Of a stretch of 64,000 nt of DNA, positions 9,161 through 34,506 are shown piece after piece. Under the pieces are notes generated by a model, which was not told where the DNA came from, ran no database searches, and was given only the letters and a program-made list of their open reading frames with translations. A program made the position numbers and the translations under genes. Every line of letters begins with the position of its first letter. Position 1 is the stretch's first letter. This DNA comes from Candidatus Omnitrophota bacterium (GTDB lineage: Bacteria; Omnitrophota; Gorgyraeia; Gorgyraeales; Gorgyraeaceae): assembly GCA_030649895.1 (NCBI GenBank), contig JAUSEX010000031.1, forward strand, positions 2,620 through 66,619. Direction: 5' to 3'.

Positions 9161-10387
9161 ATGCCATTTTTCAGGTACATGGCCAGGGATAAGTCCGGTA
9201 AATTAATAGATGAAAGAGTGGAAATCAAGAGCGAAGAAGACCTGGTTAATAGTTTGCAGGCAAGGGGCCTTATAGTTATATCGATCGGGCCTGCTTCTGA
9301 AGTCAAGGTAAAGAAAAAGGGAGATATGAGGAAATATCACAAAGCAGTCAAGCCTCATGACCTTATAATGTTTTCAAGAGAACTGGCAACGCTTTTGGGC
9401 GCAGGCGTAACGCTCATAAAGAGTTTGGAGATATTATGCAAGCAGATAGAATCCCAGACTCTTCTCAAGACCGTAGAGCAGATAAAAAAAGATGTAGAAG
9501 GCGGTTATACTTTTCAAAGCGCTTTAAAAAAGCACGATAAGATATTTTCTAATTTCTGGATAAATCTGGTAGAAACAGGAGAGGCATCAGGCCACCTTCC
9601 TTTAAGCCTTGACCAAGTTGCTGCTTACCTGGAAGAGAATGCAGAATTGAAAAGAAAAATCATGTCAGCGCTCATGTATCCTCTTGTATTGGTGGTTGTG
9701 GCAACAGGCGCGATAGCGGTGTTTTTGATTAAGATAATTCCTGTATTTTCTGAGATATTTAAAGGTTTTGATGTGGAATTGCCGGTTCTTACGCAGATAG
9801 TTATTAGCGTAAGCAATATAGCGAGAAAATATTTTCTTGTTGTAATAGTAGCAGTCGTAGTGATAGTTGTTGTTATGAAAAAATATATATCTACTGATAA
9901 AGGGAGGTGGCAGTTTGACAGTATTATGATTAAGATACCTGTTGTAGGCCAGCTGATTCAGGAGATAGCTACGGAGCGGTTTGCAAGCGGCTTAGGCACG
10001 CTTATTAAAAGCGGGGTTCCTATATTACATGCGCTTGAAATATCCGAAAAAACAGCAGGTAATAAAATAATGGAAAAAGAGCTTAAGGAAGTCAGGATGG
10101 CTGTAAAAGAAGGCAAGGGAATGGGTAAGACCATGCAAAACAGCAGCTTGTTTTCTCCTCTTGTAATCCAAATGATAAGCGTAGGAGAAGAAATAGGAGA
10201 ATTGGGTAAAATGCTGGATAGGGTTTCCGTGTTTTATAAAGAAAGAGTGAATACATTTATTTCGAGGGTTACTACAATGTTTGAACCTATAATTCTAGTT
10301 TTCATGGGTATTGTAGTAGGCATTTTAGTGGTAGCGATGTTTATGCCTATATTCAGTTTGTCCAGCGCTGTAAAGGCGTCTGGTTAA
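9161..10387 (+). CDS. pilC: type IV pilus platform protein PilC (GspF family)
   Basis: 408 aa. Two GspF repeats and three TM segments. Confidence 0.85.
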   Translation: MPFFRYMARDKSGKLIDERVEIKSEEDLVNSLQARGLIVISIGPASEVKVKKKGDMRKYHKAVKPHDLIMFSRELATLLGAGVTLIKSLEILCKQIESQTLLKTVEQIKKDVEGGYTFQSALKKHDKIFSNFWINLVETGEASGHLPLSLDQVAAYLEENAELKRKIMSALMYPLVLVVVATGAIAVFLIKIIPVFSEIFKGFDVELPVLTQIVISVSNIARKYFLVVIVAVVVIVVVMKKYISTDKGRWQFDSIMIKIPVVGQLIQEIATERFASGLGTLIKSGVPILHALEISEKTAGNKIMEKELKEVRMAVKEGKGMGKTMQNSSLFSPLVIQMISVGEEIGELGKMLDRVSVFYKERVNTFISRVTTMFEPIILVFMGIVVGILVVAMFMPIFSLSSAVKASG

Positions 10388-12929: not shown

Positions 12930-13125
12930 TGGTCTCTGCGCAGTATTTTACATTGTAAGCTAGCCTGTTTTTTTGGTCGGCCATTTGACACTGAAAAATT
13001 TTTCCGTCTACCATGATTTACAGCTTGTTTCGTTTTATTATATAGAAATATTTCAAATGTGCCTAAGACCTTGGCTTGTAGGCAGGCAATAAGATAAAGT
13101 TATTTCCAATGCAGCTTAAAAATGG

Positions 13126-13131
13126 TATAAT
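13126..13131 (+). promoter_or_regulatory. possible -10 box (TATAAT) of the tRNA-Ala cassette promoter
   Basis: ggTATAATt at 13124-13132. A weak -35 (ttccaa, 13104-13109) sits 16 nt upstream. Confidence 0.3.
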
Positions 13132-13232
13132 TAATACTTTAGAATATTATAAGGTCTTTCAGCGCCTACAATGTTTCTGTTCGTCATATTGTTTAGCGGT
13201 ACTTCAAGATCAAATTTTGCTTCGCAAAATTT

Positions 13233-13308
13233 GGGCCTGTAGCTCAGCTGGGAGAGCGCTTCGTTCGCAACGAAGAGGTCAGCGGTTCGATCCCGCTCAG
13301 GTCCACCA
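13233..13308 (+). tRNA. tRNA-Ala (anticodon CGC)
   Basis: Cloverleaf by eye: 7-bp acceptor with the G3:U70 Ala identity pair, D-arm GCTCAGCTGGGAGAGC, anticodon loop TTCGCAA, T-arm AGCGGTTCGATCCCGCT, encoded CCA. The track ORF 13109-13573 across it is spurious. Confidence 0.85.
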
Positions 13309-13524
13309 ATTCTGCGTCGAAGGCAGAATTAATCTTGAGCAAGTCAAAAATTCTACAAATAGGAGAATTTTTGACGAAGCGAAAGACCTTTGCGGATCTA
13401 TGAAAGGTCCTTCAGTAGCTAAAATGCGCGCTTTGCTCGCATTTTTGACGTTGCTTCAGAATAGAATTTGCTTTGCGAATTCTATTCTATCTCGCTCATG
13501 TTCACCAAAGCATAAGGAGATTTC

Positions 13525-14250
13525 ATGCGCTTTTACGTTCCCCCTGGCTCAATATTCCCGTCAAAAAAATTAATACAGATAAAAGATAAGACAGAAGTTC
13601 ATCATATTCGCGATGTCATGCGCCTTAAAAAATGGGATATTGTGGATATCTTTGATGGCGAAGGCAAGGAATTCTCATGTTTTATTGAAGAGGTGAAAAA
13701 AGAAGAAGTTATTATAAAAATCAAAGAAGAACTAACCCCTAAATCTGATACGCCCTTTAATGTCACTTTGTATCAGGCTGTTCCTAAAAAAACCAAAATG
13801 GATTTTATAGTGGAAAAGACTGTAGAATTAGGCGTGGGTCGGATAGTCCCCTTAATAACTGACAGGACAGTGCCTGATATGAAGGATTTTACTAAAAAAG
13901 TGGAAAGATGGAAAAGGATAGCTATGGCCAGCTCTAAGCAATGTGGCAGGCGTATTCTGCCTGTCATTTCAGATGTTACGGATTTTAAAAGCGCCTTAAT
14001 GGATTCAAAACAAAAAGATTTAGCAATTTTTGCCAGTCTGGATAAAGAAACTAAGTCTTTAAAGAATATATTAAGAGGAATAGCGCAGAAAAATATAGCG
14101 GTATTTATAGGTCCTGAAGGGGATTTTAGCCCAAGAGAGGTATCTATGGCTAAGGAAAGCGGATGTGATCTGTGTTCGCTGGGCAGACTTGTCCTTAAAT
14201 CAGAGACAGCGGCTATCTATATATTGTCATGCTTATCATATGAAGCGTAA
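13525..14250 (+). CDS. rsmE: 16S rRNA (uracil1498-N3)-methyltransferase RsmE
   Basis: 241 aa. N-terminal MRFYVP...HHIRDVMRLKKWDIVDIFDGEG PUA-like region plus C-terminal SPOUT domain. Confidence 0.8.
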   Translation: MRFYVPPGSIFPSKKLIQIKDKTEVHHIRDVMRLKKWDIVDIFDGEGKEFSCFIEEVKKEEVIIKIKEELTPKSDTPFNVTLYQAVPKKTKMDFIVEKTVELGVGRIVPLITDRTVPDMKDFTKKVERWKRIAMASSKQCGRRILPVISDVTDFKSALMDSKQKDLAIFASLDKETKSLKNILRGIAQKNIAVFIGPEGDFSPREVSMAKESGCDLCSLGRLVLKSETAAIYILSCLSYEA

Positions 14251-19903: not shown

Positions 19904-21337
19904 ATGAAAATATTGTTTCTTAATCCATCTTATGGGAAAGGATTTTGTAAGACTGCACGCTGGTTTGCGAAGTCCAGGGCAAGGGAGCAACGGCACCCTG
20001 ATTATATCTGCGTAGCTATAGCTGTGCTTGAGGAAGGCGGTCATACATGTAAGTTTATAGATGGAGCAGCCAGGGATATGTCTTTTAAGGAAACAAGGCA
20101 AATATTTAAGGATTTTAAACCCGATATGGCTGTTATAAATGCGACAACGCCTTCTATAGATTCTGATTTAAGTTATGCAAAGATGTGCAAGGAAGAGGGT
20201 GATAATAAGGTTATTACTGTTATGATAGGCGCGCATGTCAGCGCTGAACCGGAAGGTACCTTAAAAAAAGGTAACGGATTTTTGGATATAGTTGCAAGAA
20301 GAGAGTATGACTGGACATTGAAAGATATTGCGGGTGGCAATGAGTTTTCAAGCGTTCAGGGAATATCTTATTGCAGGGAAGGCAATATAACCCATAATCC
20401 CGAGAGGCATTTTATCCGGGATCTTAATGAGTTGCCTTTTCCTGCATGGCGACATATAAATCCGCGCGATTACTATAGCCCTGCAAAAAGAAATCCGTTT
20501 CTTACCGTGATTACAGGGAGAGGATGCGAGGGCAGGTGCGTATTTTGCCTGTTTCCGCAGGTAATGTATGGCAGGCAATATAGGCACAGGAGCGCCGAGA
20601 GCGTCCTAGACGAGATAGAATATGACATAAGGTTTTTCCCTTCTTTGAAAGAAATAATGTTTGAGGATGACACCTTTACTTTTAGTAAATACAACAGCAG
20701 GCTGGAAAGTATATGCAAAGGTATTATAGATAGAGGTATAAAAATTTCATGGTGCTGCAACGCAAGGCCCGAGATACAGGATATTTTGCTTTTGAGACTC
20801 ATGAAAAAAGCAGGCTGCAGGATGATGTGCGTTGGTTTTGAATCAGGAGACGATGCCATATTAAAGAATCTGAAAAAAGATATTACTGCTGATAGAATGA
20901 GAAATTTTGCCGATCTCTCCAGAAACGCAGGCATTTCTGTGCACGGGTGTTTTGTTATAGGCGCTCCAGGCGAAACGCCTGATTCAGTTAATAGGACTAT
21001 AAAATTTGCCGCTAAGCTTCCTATAGATACGGTTCAATTCAGCGGATTGTGCGCTTATCCGGGAACAGAGTTTTATAATTGGTGCAAGGAGAACAGTTAT
21101 ATTGTTGCTAGAGACTGGAAAGAATGGGTGGATGAGAAGAAAGAGCAGAGGGCGATAATAGATTACCCGGCTCTTTCTTGTAGCGCTATGAATAAAGCCG
21201 TAGACAGGGCGCTTTACAATTTCTATCTTAGGCCTGGCTACATATTCTCGCAGATAATACATCCAAAGTCATTCCGCGACATCAAGGCCAGATTAAAAGG
21301 GCTTTCGAACTTTGCCGCTTACCGCTTAAGGAATTGA
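19904..21337 (+). CDS. B12-binding domain radical SAM protein (class B)
   Basis: 477 aa. N-terminal cobalamin-binding Rossmann-like domain, then CEGRCVFC (CxxxCxxC) and a TIM-barrel rSAM core. Paralogous to the N-terminal 470 aa of the 50923 gene. Confidence 0.85.
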   Translation: MKILFLNPSYGKGFCKTARWFAKSRAREQRHPDYICVAIAVLEEGGHTCKFIDGAARDMSFKETRQIFKDFKPDMAVINATTPSIDSDLSYAKMCKEEGDNKVITVMIGAHVSAEPEGTLKKGNGFLDIVARREYDWTLKDIAGGNEFSSVQGISYCREGNITHNPERHFIRDLNELPFPAWRHINPRDYYSPAKRNPFLTVITGRGCEGRCVFCLFPQVMYGRQYRHRSAESVLDEIEYDIRFFPSLKEIMFEDDTFTFSKYNSRLESICKGIIDRGIKISWCCNARPEIQDILLLRLMKKAGCRMMCVGFESGDDAILKNLKKDITADRMRNFADLSRNAGISVHGCFVIGAPGETPDSVNRTIKFAAKLPIDTVQFSGLCAYPGTEFYNWCKENSYIVARDWKEWVDEKKEQRAIIDYPALSCSAMNKAVDRALYNFYLRPGYIFSQIIHPKSFRDIKARLKGLSNFAAYRLRN

Positions 21338-31999: not shown

Positions 32000-32205
32000 T
32001 TTACTAAACATTTTTCAAGGAGTGTGTGCGAATCTGGATAATTATATTGCCTTCCGAAGAGATCTTTTCTTTATAATTCAAATTTTGTAATACTGTCAAT
32101 GTTAGGTAGCGCTACAATGAGCTCTTGCCAGCCCTGGCGCTTACGTAATATGTTACCTGACTCTTCAAATAGTACAGATTCATAGAATTTTACTCTTGTC
32201 ATAAT

Positions 32206-32234
32206 ATAATTCAGGTGGTATAATTTATGACTTA
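32206..32234 (+). promoter_or_regulatory. sigma-70-like promoter (TTGTCA-17-TATAAT) driving tRNA-Met
   Basis: TTGTCA at 32206-32211, TATAAT at 32229-32234. The tRNA starts 12 nt downstream. Confidence 0.6.
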
Positions 32235-32245
32235 CGGGCCCATAG

Positions 32246-32322
32246 CTCAGTTGGTTAGAGCACCTGACTCATAATCAGGTGGTCCAAGGTTCAAGTCCTT
32301 GTGGGCCCACCATGTTATTTTA
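32246..32322 (+). tRNA. tRNA-Met or tRNA-Ile2 (anticodon CAT)
   Basis: GGGCCCATAGCTCAGTTGGTTAGAGCACCTGACTCATAATCAGGTGGTCCAAGGTTCAAGTCCTTGTGGGCCCACCA. Anticodon loop CTCATAA, CCA encoded. An elongator-type anticodon stem cannot separate Met from lysidine-Ile. Confidence 0.85.
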
Positions 32323-32455
32323 CAATTTAAGATAGGGCTTTAAAAGGACTTGAAGTGAGTCCCGCTAGATGCGACAAATAGGAGCATCTGTTTAGCGGGA
32401 CGAGTGGCCGACCCTGAGCCCTTCGCTGTGTTCAGGATAAACTCCGCGAAGGGCG

Positions 32456-32476
32456 CCAAGTCCTTGTGGGCCCACC
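32456..32476 (+). repeat. direct duplicate of the 3' end of tRNA-Met (T-stem 3' strand + acceptor 3' strand)
   Basis: caagtccttgtgggcccacc (20 nt) is identical to 32303-32322. This is a partial tRNA 3' copy 134 nt downstream, like the att-site scar of a tRNA-targeting integrative element. Confidence 0.55.
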
Positions 32477-32582
32477 GATTTCGCTGAAAGCGAAATCGAT
32501 CTTGAGAATACGACCGAATAGAGAGTATTCGAAGGACCTAAAGGATTAGTAAGCTAGATAGAATAAAGAATAAGCAAGCGTA

Positions 32583-32661
32583 GGTCCTTCAGTGCCTATG
32601 ATCTTCCTTTTTGTAGGATTGTTTAACGGCGCTTCAGGATCCAAATTTGCTTTGCAAATTT
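32583..32661 (+). repeat. conserved ~80-nt tRNA leader element (second copy at 13153-13232)
   Basis: The two leaders (before tRNA-Val and tRNA-Ala) align at ~75-80% identity. Both begin GGTC(C/T)TTCAG and end with a perfect hairpin (caaatttgc-ttt-gcaaatttg) abutting the tRNA 5' end. Confidence 0.6.
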
Positions 32662-32737
32662 GGGCGATTAGCTCAGCTGGTTAGAGTGCTGCCTTCACAT
32701 GGCAGAGGTCACTGGTTCGAGCCCAGTATCGCCCACC
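32662..32737 (+). tRNA. tRNA-Val (anticodon CAC)
   Basis: GGGCGATTAGCTCAGCTGGTTAGAGTGCTGCCTTCACATGGCAGAGGTCACTGGTTCGAGCCCAGTATCGCCCACC. Anticodon loop TTCACAT. 3' CC encoded, followed by G. Confidence 0.85.
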
Positions 32738-32828
32738 GATTTCGCCGGAAACGAAATCGATCCTGAAAAAGCGACGAATAGGAGCTTCTGAAGGACCTGT
32801 TAAAATAGGCATAATATAAGGAGATCAT

Positions 32829-33563
32829 TTGGAGCAAAAACCGATTAAAGGGCAGATAGGACTATTGATAGAACTTCAGGCCTTGGATACCCAGATCTAT
32901 GCTTTTAACAGGGAAAAGGCATCTACGCCAGGTTATCTGAAAGCAATCGATGATATGCTTGAATCTAAGAAGGCAGGCATTAAGCAGGCGGAGGATAGCT
33001 TAAAAGGCGTCCAGCTGAAATTAAAAGAAAAAGAAGGGAGCCTTCAGCAGAAAGAAGATCAGATAAAAAAACTGCAAGGCCAGCTTTATACATTGAAGAC
33101 GAATAAAGAATATTCTACCATGCTTGCCGAGATAGAGGGTATTAAGGCGGATAATTCTCTGATAGAAGAAGATATTATTAAATTTATGGACGAGATAGAG
33201 TTTGCCAGGAAGAAGATATCGGAAGAGAAAGAGCTCTACAGGATTGAAGAGGCTAGATCTCAGAAGGATAAAGAGATTATTAATTTAAAGGCCAAAGATA
33301 TAGAGGCGGCCCTTTCAACGCTTAATGAAAAAAGAAACGTCATAGCCCCTAATATAGAAAAACAGGTGATATCCAAGTATGAGAAGACTCTGAAGAATAA
33401 AGACGGCCTTGCAATAGTGCCTGTTGAAAACGGTTCCTGCGGCGGGTGTCATATGGGCCTTCCTCCTCAGGTTATAAGCGATGTAAAATTAAGAGAGGAT
33501 ATAATTATCTGCGGCAGTTGCCTGAGGATACTTTATATGGAGGACAATGTCGAAATCAATTAA
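32829..33563 (+). CDS. COG1579-family zinc-ribbon coiled-coil protein
   Basis: 244 aa. Long coiled coil plus C-terminal CGGCHMGLPPQ...CGSC zinc ribbon. Typical partner gene of rnhA. Confidence 0.65.
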   Translation: MEQKPIKGQIGLLIELQALDTQIYAFNREKASTPGYLKAIDDMLESKKAGIKQAEDSLKGVQLKLKEKEGSLQQKEDQIKKLQGQLYTLKTNKEYSTMLAEIEGIKADNSLIEEDIIKFMDEIEFARKKISEEKELYRIEEARSQKDKEIINLKAKDIEAALSTLNEKRNVIAPNIEKQVISKYEKTLKNKDGLAIVPVENGSCGGCHMGLPPQVISDVKLREDIIICGSCLRILYMEDNVEIN

Positions 33564-33975
33564 TATATTTATAGACGGCGCATCAAGAGGAAATCCCGGG
33601 CCTTCGGGCATAGGCATAGTATTTTGCGACGATCAGGACAAGGTTGTTAAAAAGTTATTTAAATTTATAGGAAACGCTACCAATAATGTGGCGGAATACT
33701 CAGCGCTTATATACGCTATGCAGGAAGCGCTGATAGATAGATATGACGATGTAAAGGTAAAGTCCGACAGCGAATTGCTAACCAGGCAGCTGACAGGAGA
33801 ATATAAAGTAAAAAATGATAACCTCAGGCCTTATTACGATATGTTTCAGCATATTGCGAGAGGCTTCAATAAGATAGAAGTTATCTCTATAGCCAGAGAA
33901 ATAAATTCAATAGCAGATAAGCTTGCAAATAAAGCGATAGATTCCAGGTTTGACAGTTCTTTAAAAATAGAATAG
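33547..33975 (+). CDS. rnhA: ribonuclease HI
   Basis: 142 aa. IFIDGASRGNPGPSGIGIV (catalytic Asp), AEYSALIYAM (catalytic Glu), and the DS...D motif of the RNase H1 fold. Confidence 0.8.
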   Translation: MSKSINIFIDGASRGNPGPSGIGIVFCDDQDKVVKKLFKFIGNATNNVAEYSALIYAMQEALIDRYDDVKVKSDSELLTRQLTGEYKVKNDNLRPYYDMFQHIARGFNKIEVISIAREINSIADKLANKAIDSRFDSSLKIE

Positions 33976-34383
33976 GCGTAGGCTGGATGATCGCGTTGGC
34001 TTATAACCAGATAGCTGAAAGATCCTTCGGCGCTTTGCGCCTCAGGATCATCGGCATAAATTTTGGCACTAGGGCCGATGAGGAAAGTCCGGGCTCCAAA
34101 GGGCAGCGTAGCGGGTAACGCCCGTCGTCACGCCCCTTAAATATACGCGTGATAGGATAAGAGCCACAGAGACGAGTTCCGCTGTTAAAAATTCGGCGGA
34201 GGTGAAACGAGGTAATCTCTACGCGGAGCAAGGCCAAATAGGTCCGGCTGAAAGAGCTGCCCGCTCGTAATAGCTGGACGGGTAGGTTGCATGATTCCGG
34301 CAGCAATGCCGGGGCATAGATAGATGATCGTCGCAATCAGCGCTTGGCGCTGATTGACAGAACCCGGCTTACAGGCCTGCGCC
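33976..34383 (+). ncRNA. rnpB: RNase P RNA (bacterial type A)
   Basis: Contains the universally conserved P4 strands GAGGAAAGTCCGGGCTCC (34076-34093) and ACAGAACCCGGCTTA (34358-34372). GGGCAG.GTAACGCC and GGAGCAAGGCCAAATAGG blocks align to E. coli M1 RNA. The 5' GGCGTAGGCTG pairs with the 3' CAGGCCTGCGCC (P1). The antisense track ORF 34001-34336 is spurious. Confidence 0.9.
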
Positions 34384-34506
34384 TATATATTCTTCGAGCG
34401 AGGCCGAAGGCCGAGTCGAGAAGTCTGCACCGAGTTATGTTGAAGAGCTCTCGATTCGCGGAGTTTATCCTGAGCGAAGCGAAGGGCTCGCTCGAACACT
34501 ATTAAA

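What the first reader, a model, noticed from the sequence alone, without database searches (positions are those of the whole stretch)
13153..13525. tRNA genes embedded in a conserved leader-tRNA-trailer cassette with an enclosing long-range stem
tRNA-Ala (13233) and tRNA-Val (32662) are each preceded by an ~80-nt leader that is ~75-80% identical between the two loci. Each leader ends in a perfect hairpin abutting the tRNA 5' end (caaattttgc-ttc-gcaaaatttg / ccaaatttgc-ttt-gcaaatttgg). Each tRNA is followed by a hairpin starting at the discriminator (aattctgc-gtcgaag-gcagaatt / cgatttcg-ccggaaa-cgaaatcg), then ATC(T/C)TGA, then (C)GAATAGGAG, then GAAGGACC or GAAAGACC. The leader 5' end GGTC(C/T)TTCAG is complementary to the trailer 3' end CTGAAGGACC. 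The whole ~200-nt precursor can therefore close into a long-range stem, reminiscent of rRNA processing stems cut by RNase III. The tRNA-Ala trailer extends into ~210 nt holding at least five consecutive hairpins before rsmE.
Basis: seen in the sequence. Interest (0 to 1): 0.55.

Follow-up and report, generated by a model that had tools for sequence, protein, structure and literature searches.

The report
Structured repeat element flanking tRNA genes
The conserved sequences on both sides of these tRNA genes are inverted copies of one ~80-base, four-helix element found in many Omnitrophota genomes next to tRNAs, next to tmRNA and just ahead of protein-gene ribosome-binding sites; I found no published description of the family, and its role, probably marking or stabilising transcript ends, is not proven.

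Summary
tRNA-Ala (13233) and tRNA-Val (32662) each carry an ~80-nt leader (76% identical to each other) and a related trailer.

The reading changes. Leader and trailer are the same element, "E", in opposite orientations, with a third copy at 13406-13485 in front of rsmE. E has four helices (P0, Pa, Pb, Pc). On 64 distinct copies, 96% of cells pair and 23 of 26 pairs show double changes.

A pattern scan and a covariance model found about 70 copies in Omnitrophota MAGs and metagenomes. None turned up in Rfam, phage, plasmid or viral collections, or in the literature searched.

The Pc hairpin always faces a gene boundary: the tRNA 5' end, the tRNA 3' end (inverted copy), the tmRNA 5' end, or the GGAGG of protein genes such as dnaK and groES.

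Compensatory changes are within each copy. In 3 of 7 doubly flanked tRNAs they break leader-trailer pairing. The enclosing stem is therefore a by-product of two inverted copies, not the conserved feature.

E is absent from the syntenic tRNA-Ala/rsmE locus in seven other Omnitrophota genomes, so it is not an obligatory tRNA signal.

Best reading: a new structured repeat family acting in RNA as hairpin-linker-hairpin punctuation. The mechanism is unproven.

The parts
13103..13131 (+). Promoter-like site (TTTCCA-17-TATAAT with upstream TG) ahead of the tRNA-Ala unit
   Evidence: Consensus scan. The same TGGTATAAT motif is conserved upstream of tRNA-Ala in syntenic loci L042, L047 and L003. Function is inferred.
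13153..13234 (+). Element E, copy 1: leader of tRNA-Ala (P0 GUCUU/AAGAU, Pa, Pb, then the Pc hairpin CAAAUUUUGC-UUC-GCAAAAUUUG, whose last G is tRNA position 1)
   Evidence: Covariance model R1, 85.9 bits, E = 4.7e-18. Sequence, alignment.
13233..13308 (+). tRNA-Ala(CGC), with CCA encoded
   Evidence: ARAGORN; Rfam RF00005, 65.6 bits.
13305..13388 (-). Element E, inverted degenerate copy: trailer of tRNA-Ala. Its Pc end overlaps the CCA.
   Evidence: R1, 44.3 bits, E = 4e-8 on the minus strand. nhmmer also matches the reverse strand.
13406..13485 (+). Element E, copy 2: no tRNA follows. It lies in the 5' UTR of rsmE, 39 nt before the ATG.
   Evidence: R1, 77.2 bits. The orthologous copy in L045 (RsmE 93% identical) differs by 12 substitutions, 7 of them in paired positions. 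All 5 affected pairs stay paired, 2 through double changes.
13525..14250 (+). rsmE (16S rRNA m3U1498 methyltransferase family), the downstream gene
   Evidence: ORF list; Pfam PF20260 and PF04452 on the identical protein; homologues named RsmE.
32196..32224 (+). Promoter-like site (TTGTCA-17-TATAAT with TG) directly ahead of tRNA-Met. No other + strand promoter-like site lies downstream of it as far as the scan's end (32900), which covers tRNA-Val and the start of the ORF at 32829.
   Evidence: Co-transcription of Met, X, E, Val and the ORF is inferred.
32236..32312 (+). tRNA-Met(CAT), with no E leader
   Evidence: ARAGORN; Rfam, 77.2 bits.
32313..32480 (+). Module X: a structured spacer that ends in a duplicate of the last 20 nt of tRNA-Met (32458-32477)
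   Evidence: Sequence. Fold z = -5.8, with the duplicate forming the 3' strand of the closing stem. Conserved with compensatory changes in L042, and also present in L004 and L043.
32474..32538 (-). Element E, inverted degenerate copy following the tRNA-Met 3' duplicate
   Evidence: R1, 39.1 bits, E = 7e-7.
32583..32664 (+). Element E, copy 3: leader of tRNA-Val. P0 pairs 32584-32588 with 32636-32640. The Pc hairpin (32641-32663) includes tRNA positions 1-2.
   Evidence: R1, 89.6 bits, E = 6e-19. Sequence.
32662..32737 (+). tRNA-Val(CAC). The gene reads ACCG, so A76 is not encoded.
   Evidence: ARAGORN; Rfam, 66.1 bits; sequence.
32735..32797 (-). Element E, inverted short copy: trailer of tRNA-Val
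   Evidence: R1, 43.7 bits, E = 5.7e-8.
32829..33563 (+). Downstream ORF (244 aa), starting 32 nt after the trailer
   Evidence: ORF list. The orthologous gene in L042 carries Pfam CT398_CC and Zn_ribbon_9.

Best explanation
Shown. The 'leader' and 'trailer' are copies of one ~80-nt element, E. Its consensus is GGUCCUUCAG-CGGC-UA-UAAUCC-UCCUAUUCGUC-GGAUUA-UUUAAC-GCCG-CUUCAGGAUC-AAAUUUGC-UUC-GCAAAUUUG. Each copy folds on its own into two domains joined by about one base:
- a long irregular hairpin made of helix P0 (closing helix), helix Pa and helix Pb;
- a 9-bp hairpin, Pc, with a UUC loop.
Copies are scattered through many Omnitrophota genomes, singly, in tandem arrays and as inverted pairs. 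The Pc end always faces a gene boundary. Forward copies abut position +1 of tRNAs and tmRNA, or the GGAGG of protein genes. Inverted copies abut the tRNA CCA end.

Supported. Forward copies are under selection as RNA in the sense orientation.

Inferred mechanism. E acts as transcript 'punctuation' in operons that lack internal promoters and terminators.
- Two stable hairpins with a short exposed linker would give an endonuclease a defined cut site. Candidates are RNase III on the long hairpin or on a leader-trailer duplex, or an RNase E/Y-type enzyme at the linker.
- The fragments left behind would have ends capped by hairpins. The downstream mRNA would start with Pc plus its Shine-Dalgarno sequence. 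The upstream RNA would end in the P0-Pa-Pb hairpin. The pre-tRNA would then be ready for RNase P and 3' trimming.
- A hairpin-linker-hairpin works in either orientation, which would explain why inverted copies serve as trailers.
- The family spreads and turns over like a repeat (duplication, loss, replacement by other repeat families), so any one copy is dispensable.
When two inverted copies bracket a tRNA they can also pair with each other, as in this window. That pairing is a consequence of the arrangement, not the conserved feature.
For: - One family, both orientations. nhmmer and the covariance model R1 hit all trailers on the opposite strand. The trailer loop GACGAAUAGGA is the reverse complement of the leader loop, and ATCCTGAAG is the reverse complement of CTTCAGGAT.
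- Structure. On the MAFFT seed, 96% of cells pair, 15 of 21 pairs show double changes, and 0 of 500 shuffles reach this. RNAalifold independently adds helix P0. On 64 distinct copies, 96.2% of cells pair, 23 of 26 pairs show double changes, and versions with the partner slid by 1-3 columns pair at only 29-48%.
- Autonomy. P0 compensations are within a copy and break trans pairing in 3 of 7 doubly flanked tRNAs. Lone copies sit before protein genes and on a single side of tRNAs.
- Strict polarity. The Pc end is next to the tRNA or tmRNA in all 26 adjacent cases (12 leaders, 14 trailers; the 2 tmRNA leaders are additional). No copy has its 5' end next to a tRNA.
- RNA-level selection. Between the window and L045, all 7 substitutions at paired positions keep pairing, two through double changes and three through G-U pairs that are valid only in the E sense. 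Non-Watson-Crick pairs in leader and 5'-UTR copies are G-U in the E sense 26 times and A-C 15 times.
- Intercistronic setting. Promoter-like sites lie upstream of the units only, and there are no terminators. E often starts a few bases after the upstream stop codon, for example after rpsO in L039.
- A Pc-like hairpin still abuts tRNA-Ala in relatives that lack the rest of E (L047, L042; my reading of the sequences).
Against: - No cleavage or RNA-end data exist, so the processing and stability role is inference.
- A purely structural role does not explain the strong primary-sequence conservation of unpaired segments (GGUCCUUC, UUUAAC, the loop, the Pc apex) across species and in both orientations.
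- Inverted copies keep G2 and U61, which become an A-C mismatch in the transcribed trailer (21 of 21). They show no G-U bias in their own sense.
- Between the window and L045, by my reading of the alignment (not computed), the trailer copy took two changes that break pairs. Trailers may therefore be less constrained, or not functional as RNA.
- E is absent at the syntenic tRNA-Ala, tRNA-Met and tRNA-Val genes of 7 other genomes (0 of 9 tRNAs). It cannot be essential for tRNA maturation.
- Turnover, tandem arrays and truncated copies look like selfish repeat behaviour.
Confidence: 0.45

Rival explanations
1. Selfish miniature repeat (MITE- or REP/REPIN-like). E would be a non-autonomous mobile element whose hairpins are recognised as single-stranded DNA by a transposase. 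It would insert with fixed polarity next to acceptor-stem-like or GG-rich targets (tRNA ends, tmRNA, Shine-Dalgarno sites). Hosts would tolerate it without using it.
For: - Presence and absence vary at a syntenic locus. E is present in the window, L045 (RsmE 93% identical) and L003 (53%), and absent in 7 genomes at 60-78%.
- Other unrelated palindromic repeat families occupy the same intergenic slot in those genomes.
- There are tandem arrays with truncated upstream copies, subfamilies that share compensated variants (GGTAC/AGTAT in L020, L032, L036), and both orientations.
- The two ends of a tRNA gene are related by two-fold symmetry through the acceptor stem. Polar insertion beside that sequence would give the mirrored E->tRNA<-E layout (inference).
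- A separate 53-nt palindrome with a GGCCTG duplication sits between E and tRNA-Ala in L003, which suggests that small insertions occur here.
Against: - E has no terminal inverted repeats: GGTCCTTCAG at one end against CCAAATTTGC, the reverse complement of the other.
- There is no consistent target-site duplication. 35 of 66 distinct copies have none, and the longer matches I inspected lie in tandem arrays.
- No transposase gene was seen in the annotated loci.
- E is absent from viral, phage and plasmid collections.
- Copies within one genome are diverged, not near-identical (62-76% in the window).
- An orthologous copy evolves by pair-preserving changes in place, including sense-specific G-U pairs. 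Neutral decay of a dead insertion would not do this.
- Placement is exact to the base at functional boundaries.
Confidence: 0.25
2. Leader and trailer exist in order to pair with each other, enclosing the tRNA in a long stem that RNase III cuts, as in rRNA operons.
For: - MFE folds of both window units form the outer 8-10 bp stem and an inner 8-9 bp stem around a junction of leader hairpin, tRNA and trailer hairpin.
- In the window tRNA-Ala unit, all four strands carry the matching variant, GGTCT/AAGAT in both leader and trailer.
- Trailers keep G2 and U61, which would be Watson-Crick paired in trans but mismatched in cis.
Against: - Compensatory changes are within a copy and disrupt trans pairing in L009 Thr, L010 Gly and L036 Asp.
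- Many tRNAs have E on one side only. tmRNA and protein genes have only the forward copy.
- The middle domains of leader and trailer in the window differ in length and cannot form a continuous duplex.
Confidence: 0.15
3. Regulatory leader. The forward copy would bind a protein or ligand to control transcription elongation or translation of highly expressed genes. Possibilities include a NusB/NusE boxA-like antitermination site around UUUAAC, or an anti-Shine-Dalgarno loop (CUCCU) that masks the GGAGG next to Pc. Inverted copies would be non-functional by-products.
For: - Forward copies precede tRNA, tmRNA, dnaK, groES, infC and oxidative-stress genes (gene names are my reading of the N-terminal sequences).
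- Unpaired segments are highly conserved.
- UUUAAC resembles the core of the E. coli boxA sequence UGCUCUUUAACAA (from my own knowledge).
- The loop often reads CCUCCU.
Against: - Only six bases match boxA.
- The loop varies (UUCCUUUGGUC, UCGCUAAUCGCUC and others), so an anti-Shine-Dalgarno role is not conserved.
- High-scoring canonical copies are as common in the inverted position, at 82-103 bits. A leader-only function does not explain that.
- There is no terminator or sequestering expression platform. Pc covers only 1-2 bases of the Shine-Dalgarno sequence.
Confidence: 0.1
4. Self-cleaving ribozyme, or the handle of a dedicated Cas6-like endonuclease, that cuts exactly at the 3' base of Pc.
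For: - The size, multi-helix fold, conserved junction bases, tandem arrays and exact abutment to mature 5' ends are compatible with this.
Against: - No match to any Rfam ribozyme family, even at E-values up to 10.
- No conserved sequence follows Pc, which would be needed for an HDV-like double pseudoknot.
- RNase P RNA is present in the window, so the tRNA 5' end needs no other enzyme.
- Inverted copies cannot share a catalytic fold.
Confidence: 0.05

Closest known systems
REP/BIME/REPIN elements of Enterobacteria and Pseudomonas (from my own knowledge)
   Same: Extragenic, transcribed, structured repeats. They are found in both orientations, as inverted pairs and tandem clusters, between genes of an operon and after genes. 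They are thought to stabilise flanking mRNA, and they turn over between lineages.
   Different: - E is about 80 nt with four helices, not a single 20-40 nt imperfect palindrome.
- E has no GTAG-type 5' tetranucleotide.
- It is conserved in sequence across many species of a phylum rather than within a genus.
- Its polarity is strict and base-exact towards tRNA and tmRNA ends and Shine-Dalgarno sites.
- No RAYT transposase link has been examined.
Correia/NEMIS elements of Neisseria, and ERIC elements (from my own knowledge)
   Same: Elements of about 100-150 nt, often co-transcribed in 5' UTRs. They fold into hairpins that RNase III can cut, and they can change mRNA stability. They show presence/absence polymorphism.
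   Different: - Correia elements have 26-bp terminal inverted repeats and a TA duplication. E has neither.
- E is tied to tRNA and tmRNA borders.
rRNA operon processing stems cut by RNase III (from my own knowledge)
   Same: In the window, leader and trailer segments can pair and enclose the mature RNA.
   Different: - The pairing is not maintained by trans covariation.
- The same element works alone before protein genes.
- It is absent from orthologous tRNAs in related genomes.
5'-terminal stabiliser hairpins (E. coli ompA 5' UTR; Bacillus 5' stem-loops and STAB-SD) (from my own knowledge)
   Same: A stable hairpin immediately 5' of the Shine-Dalgarno sequence. The inverted copy displays an AGGAG(G) loop, which recalls STAB-SD.
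   Different: Those are gene-specific sequences, not a dispersed conserved family. No 5' end has been mapped at E.
Archaeal bulge-helix-bulge flanks of pre-tRNA and pre-rRNA (review PMC7714728 turned up; abstract only seen)
   Same: Structured flanks that mark RNA ends for an endonuclease.
   Different: No 3-4-3 bulge-helix-bulge geometry is visible in E. Whether these bacteria have a splicing endonuclease was not examined.

Membership tests
rRNA-type RNase III processing stem | Leader and trailer are complementary and enclose the mature RNA | tested here: met
   In the window, the outer stem has 8-10 of 10 pairs and the inner stem 8 of 9. MFE folds show both stems.
rRNA-type RNase III processing stem | The trans pairing is maintained by compensatory change across homologues | tested here: not met
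   In 3 of 7 doubly flanked tRNAs the changes are compensated within a copy and mismatch in trans. Lone copies are common.
rRNA-type RNase III processing stem | Cleavage by RNase III | not testable with these tools
   This needs an enzyme assay or RNA-end mapping.
REP/REPIN | Multi-copy, extragenic, in both orientations, in inverted pairs and tandem clusters | tested here: met
   72 covariance-model hits in 37 sources. All copies whose surroundings I examined are intergenic. There are tandem arrays in L011, L014, L004 and L013, and inverted pairs between tRNAs.
REP/REPIN | A single short (20-40 nt) imperfect palindrome with a conserved 5' tetranucleotide (GTAG type) | tested here: not met
   E is 81 model positions with four helices and starts GGUCC.
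REP/REPIN | Linked RAYT (Y1 transposase) gene | not tested
None appears among the Pfam labels of loci L040-L047.
MITE (Correia-like) | Terminal inverted repeats | tested here: not met
   The 5' end is GGTCCTTCAG. The reverse complement of the 3' end is CCAAATTTGC.
MITE (Correia-like) | Target-site duplication | tested here: not met
   35 of 66 distinct copies have none. The matches of 4 nt or more that I inspected lie in tandem arrays. The 5' flank is only A-rich (TAA or AAA).
MITE (Correia-like) | Filled versus empty orthologous sites | tested here: met
   At the syntenic tRNA-Ala/rsmE locus, E is present in the window, L045 and L003, and absent in L040-L044, L046 and L047.
Any Rfam 15 family, including the self-cleaving ribozymes | Covariance-model score at or above the gathering threshold | tested here: not met
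   Only tRNA, tmRNA, RNase P RNA and group I intron hits appear in the window and 38 loci. Nothing relevant overlaps E even at E-values up to 10.
boxA (NusB/NusE) antitermination leader | A match to the boxA consensus, present only in the sense leader | tested here: not met
   Only UUUAAC matches, by eye. The element is equally common inverted downstream of tRNAs.

The most novel reading that the evidence does not exclude
E is the recognition module of an undescribed Omnitrophota RNA-processing system. A dedicated endonuclease, or the RNA itself, would cut at fixed positions of the element. This would punctuate polycistronic transcripts at tRNA and tmRNA ends and create mRNAs that begin with Pc plus a Shine-Dalgarno sequence. 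It would be a bacterial counterpart of organellar tRNA punctuation or Cas6-type processing, built from a dispersed repeat.
Probability: 0.15. Interest if true: 0.85.

Novelty: new variant of a known kind. Interest (0 to 1): 0.6.

Why it matters
Omnitrophota are uncultured, often ultra-small bacteria whose RNA biology is unknown.

This element is conserved at about the level of a tRNA across many species. Its four helices are well supported by covariation, and it sits base-exactly at tRNA ends, at the tmRNA 5' end and at ribosome-binding sites. Rfam does not contain it, and I found no description in the searchable literature.

If it is functional, it points to a lineage-specific way of cutting and stabilising polycistronic RNAs. 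It would also supply a natural 'insulator' part for synthetic biology.

If it is selfish, it is a repeat with an unusual, strictly polar preference for tRNA gene borders.

In either case it will affect gene calling (a spurious ORF at 13109-13573 spans it), tRNA flank analyses and assembly in these genomes.

Tried and rejected
- **Known RNA families.** Rfam at gathering thresholds on the window and 38 loci, and at E-values up to 10 on both window loci, found nothing overlapping E.
- **Mobile genetic elements as carriers.** An exact-pattern scan of viral contigs and blastn against the phage and plasmid collections found no match.
- **Literature.** Searches on Omnitrophota with tRNA, repeat or RNA-motif terms, and on literal sequence strings, returned nothing relevant.
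- **Sigma-54 promoter** (GG-N10-GC across AGGAUCAAAUUUGC). Rejected by eye: the spacing is one base short in most copies, the region covaries as a hairpin, and inverted copies would fire into tRNAs.
- **Sigma-70 -10 box at UAnAAU.** Rejected by eye: these bases form helix Pb and covary, and separate promoters lie upstream.
- **HDV-like or hatchet ribozyme.** Rejected: there is no conserved strand after Pc and no Rfam signal.
- **T-box leader, CRISPR repeat and integron attC.** Considered by eye and dropped. Only the RYYYAAC-like GTTTAAC resembles attC, and it has no partner core site.
- **G-U versus A-C strand test on trailers.** Inconclusive: 8 against 9.
- **Target-site duplication search.** Negative.
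- **First cis/trans pairing script.** It had a register error for the window copies. It was redone on alignment columns.
Full report
**1. What is in the window**

ARAGORN and Rfam find three tRNAs: Ala(CGC) at 13233-13308, Met(CAT) at 32236-32312 and Val(CAC) at 32662-32737. They also find an RNase P RNA at 33975-34387.

The two leaders are 76% identical. GGTCYTTCAG occurs exactly four times in 64 kb, always at these loci.

Two things were missed:
- A third forward copy of the 'leader' at 13406-13485 has no tRNA behind it and sits directly before rsmE.
- A duplicate of the last 20 nt of tRNA-Met at 32458-32477 is followed by a third 'trailer'.

**2. Leader and trailer are one element in two orientations**

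The trailer motifs are reverse complements of leader motifs:
- GACGAATAGGA against TCCTATTCGTC;
- ATCCTGAAG against CTTCAGGAT;
- CTGAAGGACC against GGTCCTTCAG.

A profile built from leaders hits the trailers on the opposite strand. So does covariance model R1, at 39-44 bits with E-values around 1e-7. I call the element E.

**3. E is widespread in Omnitrophota**

One pattern scan of 185,579 species-representative genomes returned 18 loci. Thirteen are labelled Omnitrophota or Omnitrophica; five are labelled 'uncultured bacterium' or 'uncultured Planctomycetia bacterium' (three MAGs). A metagenome scan returned 20 more loci.

With R1, 72 copies were aligned. Rfam has no family for it. It is absent from viral, phage and plasmid collections. 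I found no description in the searchable literature.

**4. Structure**

On a MAFFT alignment of 24 copies, three helices that I drew by eye pair in 96% of cells. Double changes occur in 15 of 21 pairs, and 0 of 500 shuffles reach this.

RNAalifold independently added a closing helix, P0, which pairs GUCCU with AGGAU and has an invariant G-U at its outer end.

On 64 distinct copies, 96.2% of cells pair and 23 of 26 pairs show double changes. Versions with the partner slid by 1-3 columns pair at only 29-48%. That alignment is fitted to the model, so it leans towards the structure.

The fold has two parts joined by about one base:
- P0-Pa-Pb, one long irregular hairpin capped by the loop UCCUAUUCGUC, with a UUUAAC bulge;
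- the Pc hairpin, CAAAUUUGC-UUC-GCAAAUUUG.

**5. Context and polarity**

The Pc end always faces a gene boundary:
- Same strand, abutting or overlapping tRNA position +1: 12 cases.
- Opposite strand, overlapping the CCA: 14 cases.
- Same strand, abutting the tmRNA 5' end: 2 of 2 cases.
- Running straight into the GGAGG of protein genes.

From their N-terminal sequences I read those genes as dnaK, groES, infC, dapA, aroC, a ferritin-like protein, superoxide reductase, a bactofilin and a PilZ protein. In L041 a pilin gene and a NIF3 gene carry short forms of E.

No copy has its 5' end next to a tRNA. Tandem arrays occur with an 84-nt period, and in them the upstream copies lack the Pc 3' strand. 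In L039, E lies between the rpsO stop codon and a terminator-like hairpin ahead of pnp.

**6. Is the enclosing stem real?**

Thermodynamically yes, in this window. MFE folds pair the leader 5' end with the trailer 3' end, and the leader CUUCAGGAUC with the trailer GAUCCUGAA.

Evolution points elsewhere. Every P0 variant is compensated within its own copy: GGTGC/AGCAT, GGTAC/AGTAT, GGTAT/AATAT and GGTCT/AAGAT.

Among seven tRNAs flanked on both sides, L009 Thr, L010 Gly and L036 Asp carry such cis-compensated variants in one flank only. That leaves cis P0 at 5 of 5 in the leader-orientation copy (4 of 5 in every trailer as transcribed) but puts mismatches into both trans helices. Only the window tRNA-Ala unit shares its variant between leader and trailer.

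Together with the many lone copies, this makes the long-range stem a consequence of two inverted copies rather than the selected feature.

**7. Is E selected as RNA?**

The copy before rsmE can be compared with its orthologue in L045, where RsmE is 93% identical. There are 12 substitutions. Seven fall in paired positions and affect five pairs. All five stay paired: two by double change (C-G to U-A) and three through G-U pairs that are valid only in the E sense.

Non-Watson-Crick pairs in leader and 5'-UTR copies are G-U in the E sense 26 times and A-C 15 times; the most diverged of these copies carry most of the G-U pairs.

Trailers show no such bias (8 against 9). All 21 keep G2 and U61, which is an A-C mismatch in the transcribed trailer. 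By my reading of the alignment (not computed), the window trailer took two pair-breaking changes relative to L045. Forward copies therefore look like functional RNA. Inverted copies are less clearly so.

**8. Turnover**

The tRNA-Ala(CGC)/rsmE synteny (pilus genes, tRNA-Ala, rsmE) is conserved widely.
- E is present there in the window, in L045 (RsmE 93% identical) and in the distant L003 (53%).
- It is absent in seven genomes at 60-78% identity. In L042 the tRNA-Met and tRNA-Val genes also lack it, giving 0 of 9 tRNAs.
- In those genomes the same slot holds other structured repeat families, which I labelled F, G and H, plus a large palindrome. Several of them also place a hairpin against the CCA.
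- In L047 and L042 a short hairpin resembling Pc still abuts tRNA-Ala (my reading).

E has no terminal inverted repeats and no consistent target-site duplication.

**9. Interpretation**

Shown:
- E is an autonomous four-helix repeat family. The window's leaders and trailers are inverted copies of it.
- Its polarity towards gene boundaries is strict.
- It is dispensable at any given locus.

Supported: sense copies are under RNA-level selection.

Inferred: E works as hairpin-linker-hairpin punctuation in operons without internal promoters or terminators. It would offer a defined endonuclease site and leave hairpin-capped ends. Such a design works in either orientation.

The main rival is a selfish repeat with polar insertion next to tRNA borders. 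The RNase III enclosing-stem model, a regulatory leader, and a ribozyme or dedicated-nuclease handle follow in that order. None can be settled without RNA-end data.

**10. Verdict**

- The element is a new family, closest in kind to the REP/BIME and Correia repeats. It is unusual in its size, its conservation across many species and its base-exact association with tRNA, tmRNA and Shine-Dalgarno boundaries.

Noticed in passing
window 32313-32480; also L042:19844-20002, L004:7525-7694 (minus strand), L043:9755-9995: Module X is a structured RNA of about 145-240 nt directly 3' of a tRNA (Met, Val(GAC) or Ala). It ends in a duplicate of that tRNA's own last ~20 nt and has a conserved core, GGACGAGTGGCCGAYC...hairpin...GGGCGCC. 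Its 5' part pairs with the duplicate and changes with the tRNA (GGACTTG/CAAGTCC, GGACTCG/CGAGTCC, GGGATT/AAATCCC). The fold z-score is -5.8. It is conserved with compensatory changes at the orthologous tRNA-Met locus of a genome whose RsmE is only 62% identical. It has no Rfam match. It could be a mimic of the tRNA 3' end, or the scar of a miniature integrative element.
   Followed up: partly
L042:9881-9990 and 20222-20330; L041:9823-9980 and L042:19999-20144; L046:9590-9697 and 9774-9990; L041:9300-9700 and L047:1760-2090: Other Omnitrophota genomes carry unrelated structured repeat families (my labels F, G and H, plus a large palindrome) in the same tRNA-flanking slots. Several place a hairpin directly against the CCA. 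tRNA borders appear to be a general hot spot for structured repeats in this phylum.
   Followed up: partly
L003:6690-6750: A 53-nt palindromic insert, flanked by a GGCCTG (or GGGCCTG) duplication, separates the E copy from tRNA-Ala. It looks like a separate miniature insertion with a target-site duplication.
   Followed up: no
L006:5605-5839 (minus strand) and L020:3676-3895 (minus strand): Group I introns (Rfam RF00028, 82 and 101 bits) lie inside what look like tRNA genes that are flanked by E copies.
   Followed up: no
L039:126-365: An E copy lies between the rpsO stop codon and a terminator-like hairpin, upstream of pnp. In E. coli the rpsO-pnp spacer holds a classic RNase III site (from my own knowledge).
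   Followed up: partly
window 32734-32745 and 32474-32481: The tRNA-Val gene and the tRNA-Met 3' duplicate read ACCG, so A76 is not encoded. tRNA-Ala and the intact tRNA-Met encode ACCA. In the ACCG cases the trailer hairpin starts at C75.
   Followed up: no
window 33975-34387: RNase P RNA (bacterial class A, 194 bits) starts directly after the ORF at 33547-33975, on the same strand as the tRNA-Met/Val unit, with no E copy in front. It may be co-transcribed with that unit.
   Followed up: no
window 13109-13573: A 154-aa ORF spans the E copies and tRNA-Ala. It is almost certainly spurious, and gene callers may report it.
   Followed up: no
L047:2150-2171; L042:9787-9805: Relatives that lack E keep a short hairpin resembling Pc (GATTTGT-TTC-GTAAATT; ATTCGC-TTC-GTGAAT) directly 5' of tRNA-Ala. 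Pc may be older than, or outlast, the rest of the element.
   Followed up: partly
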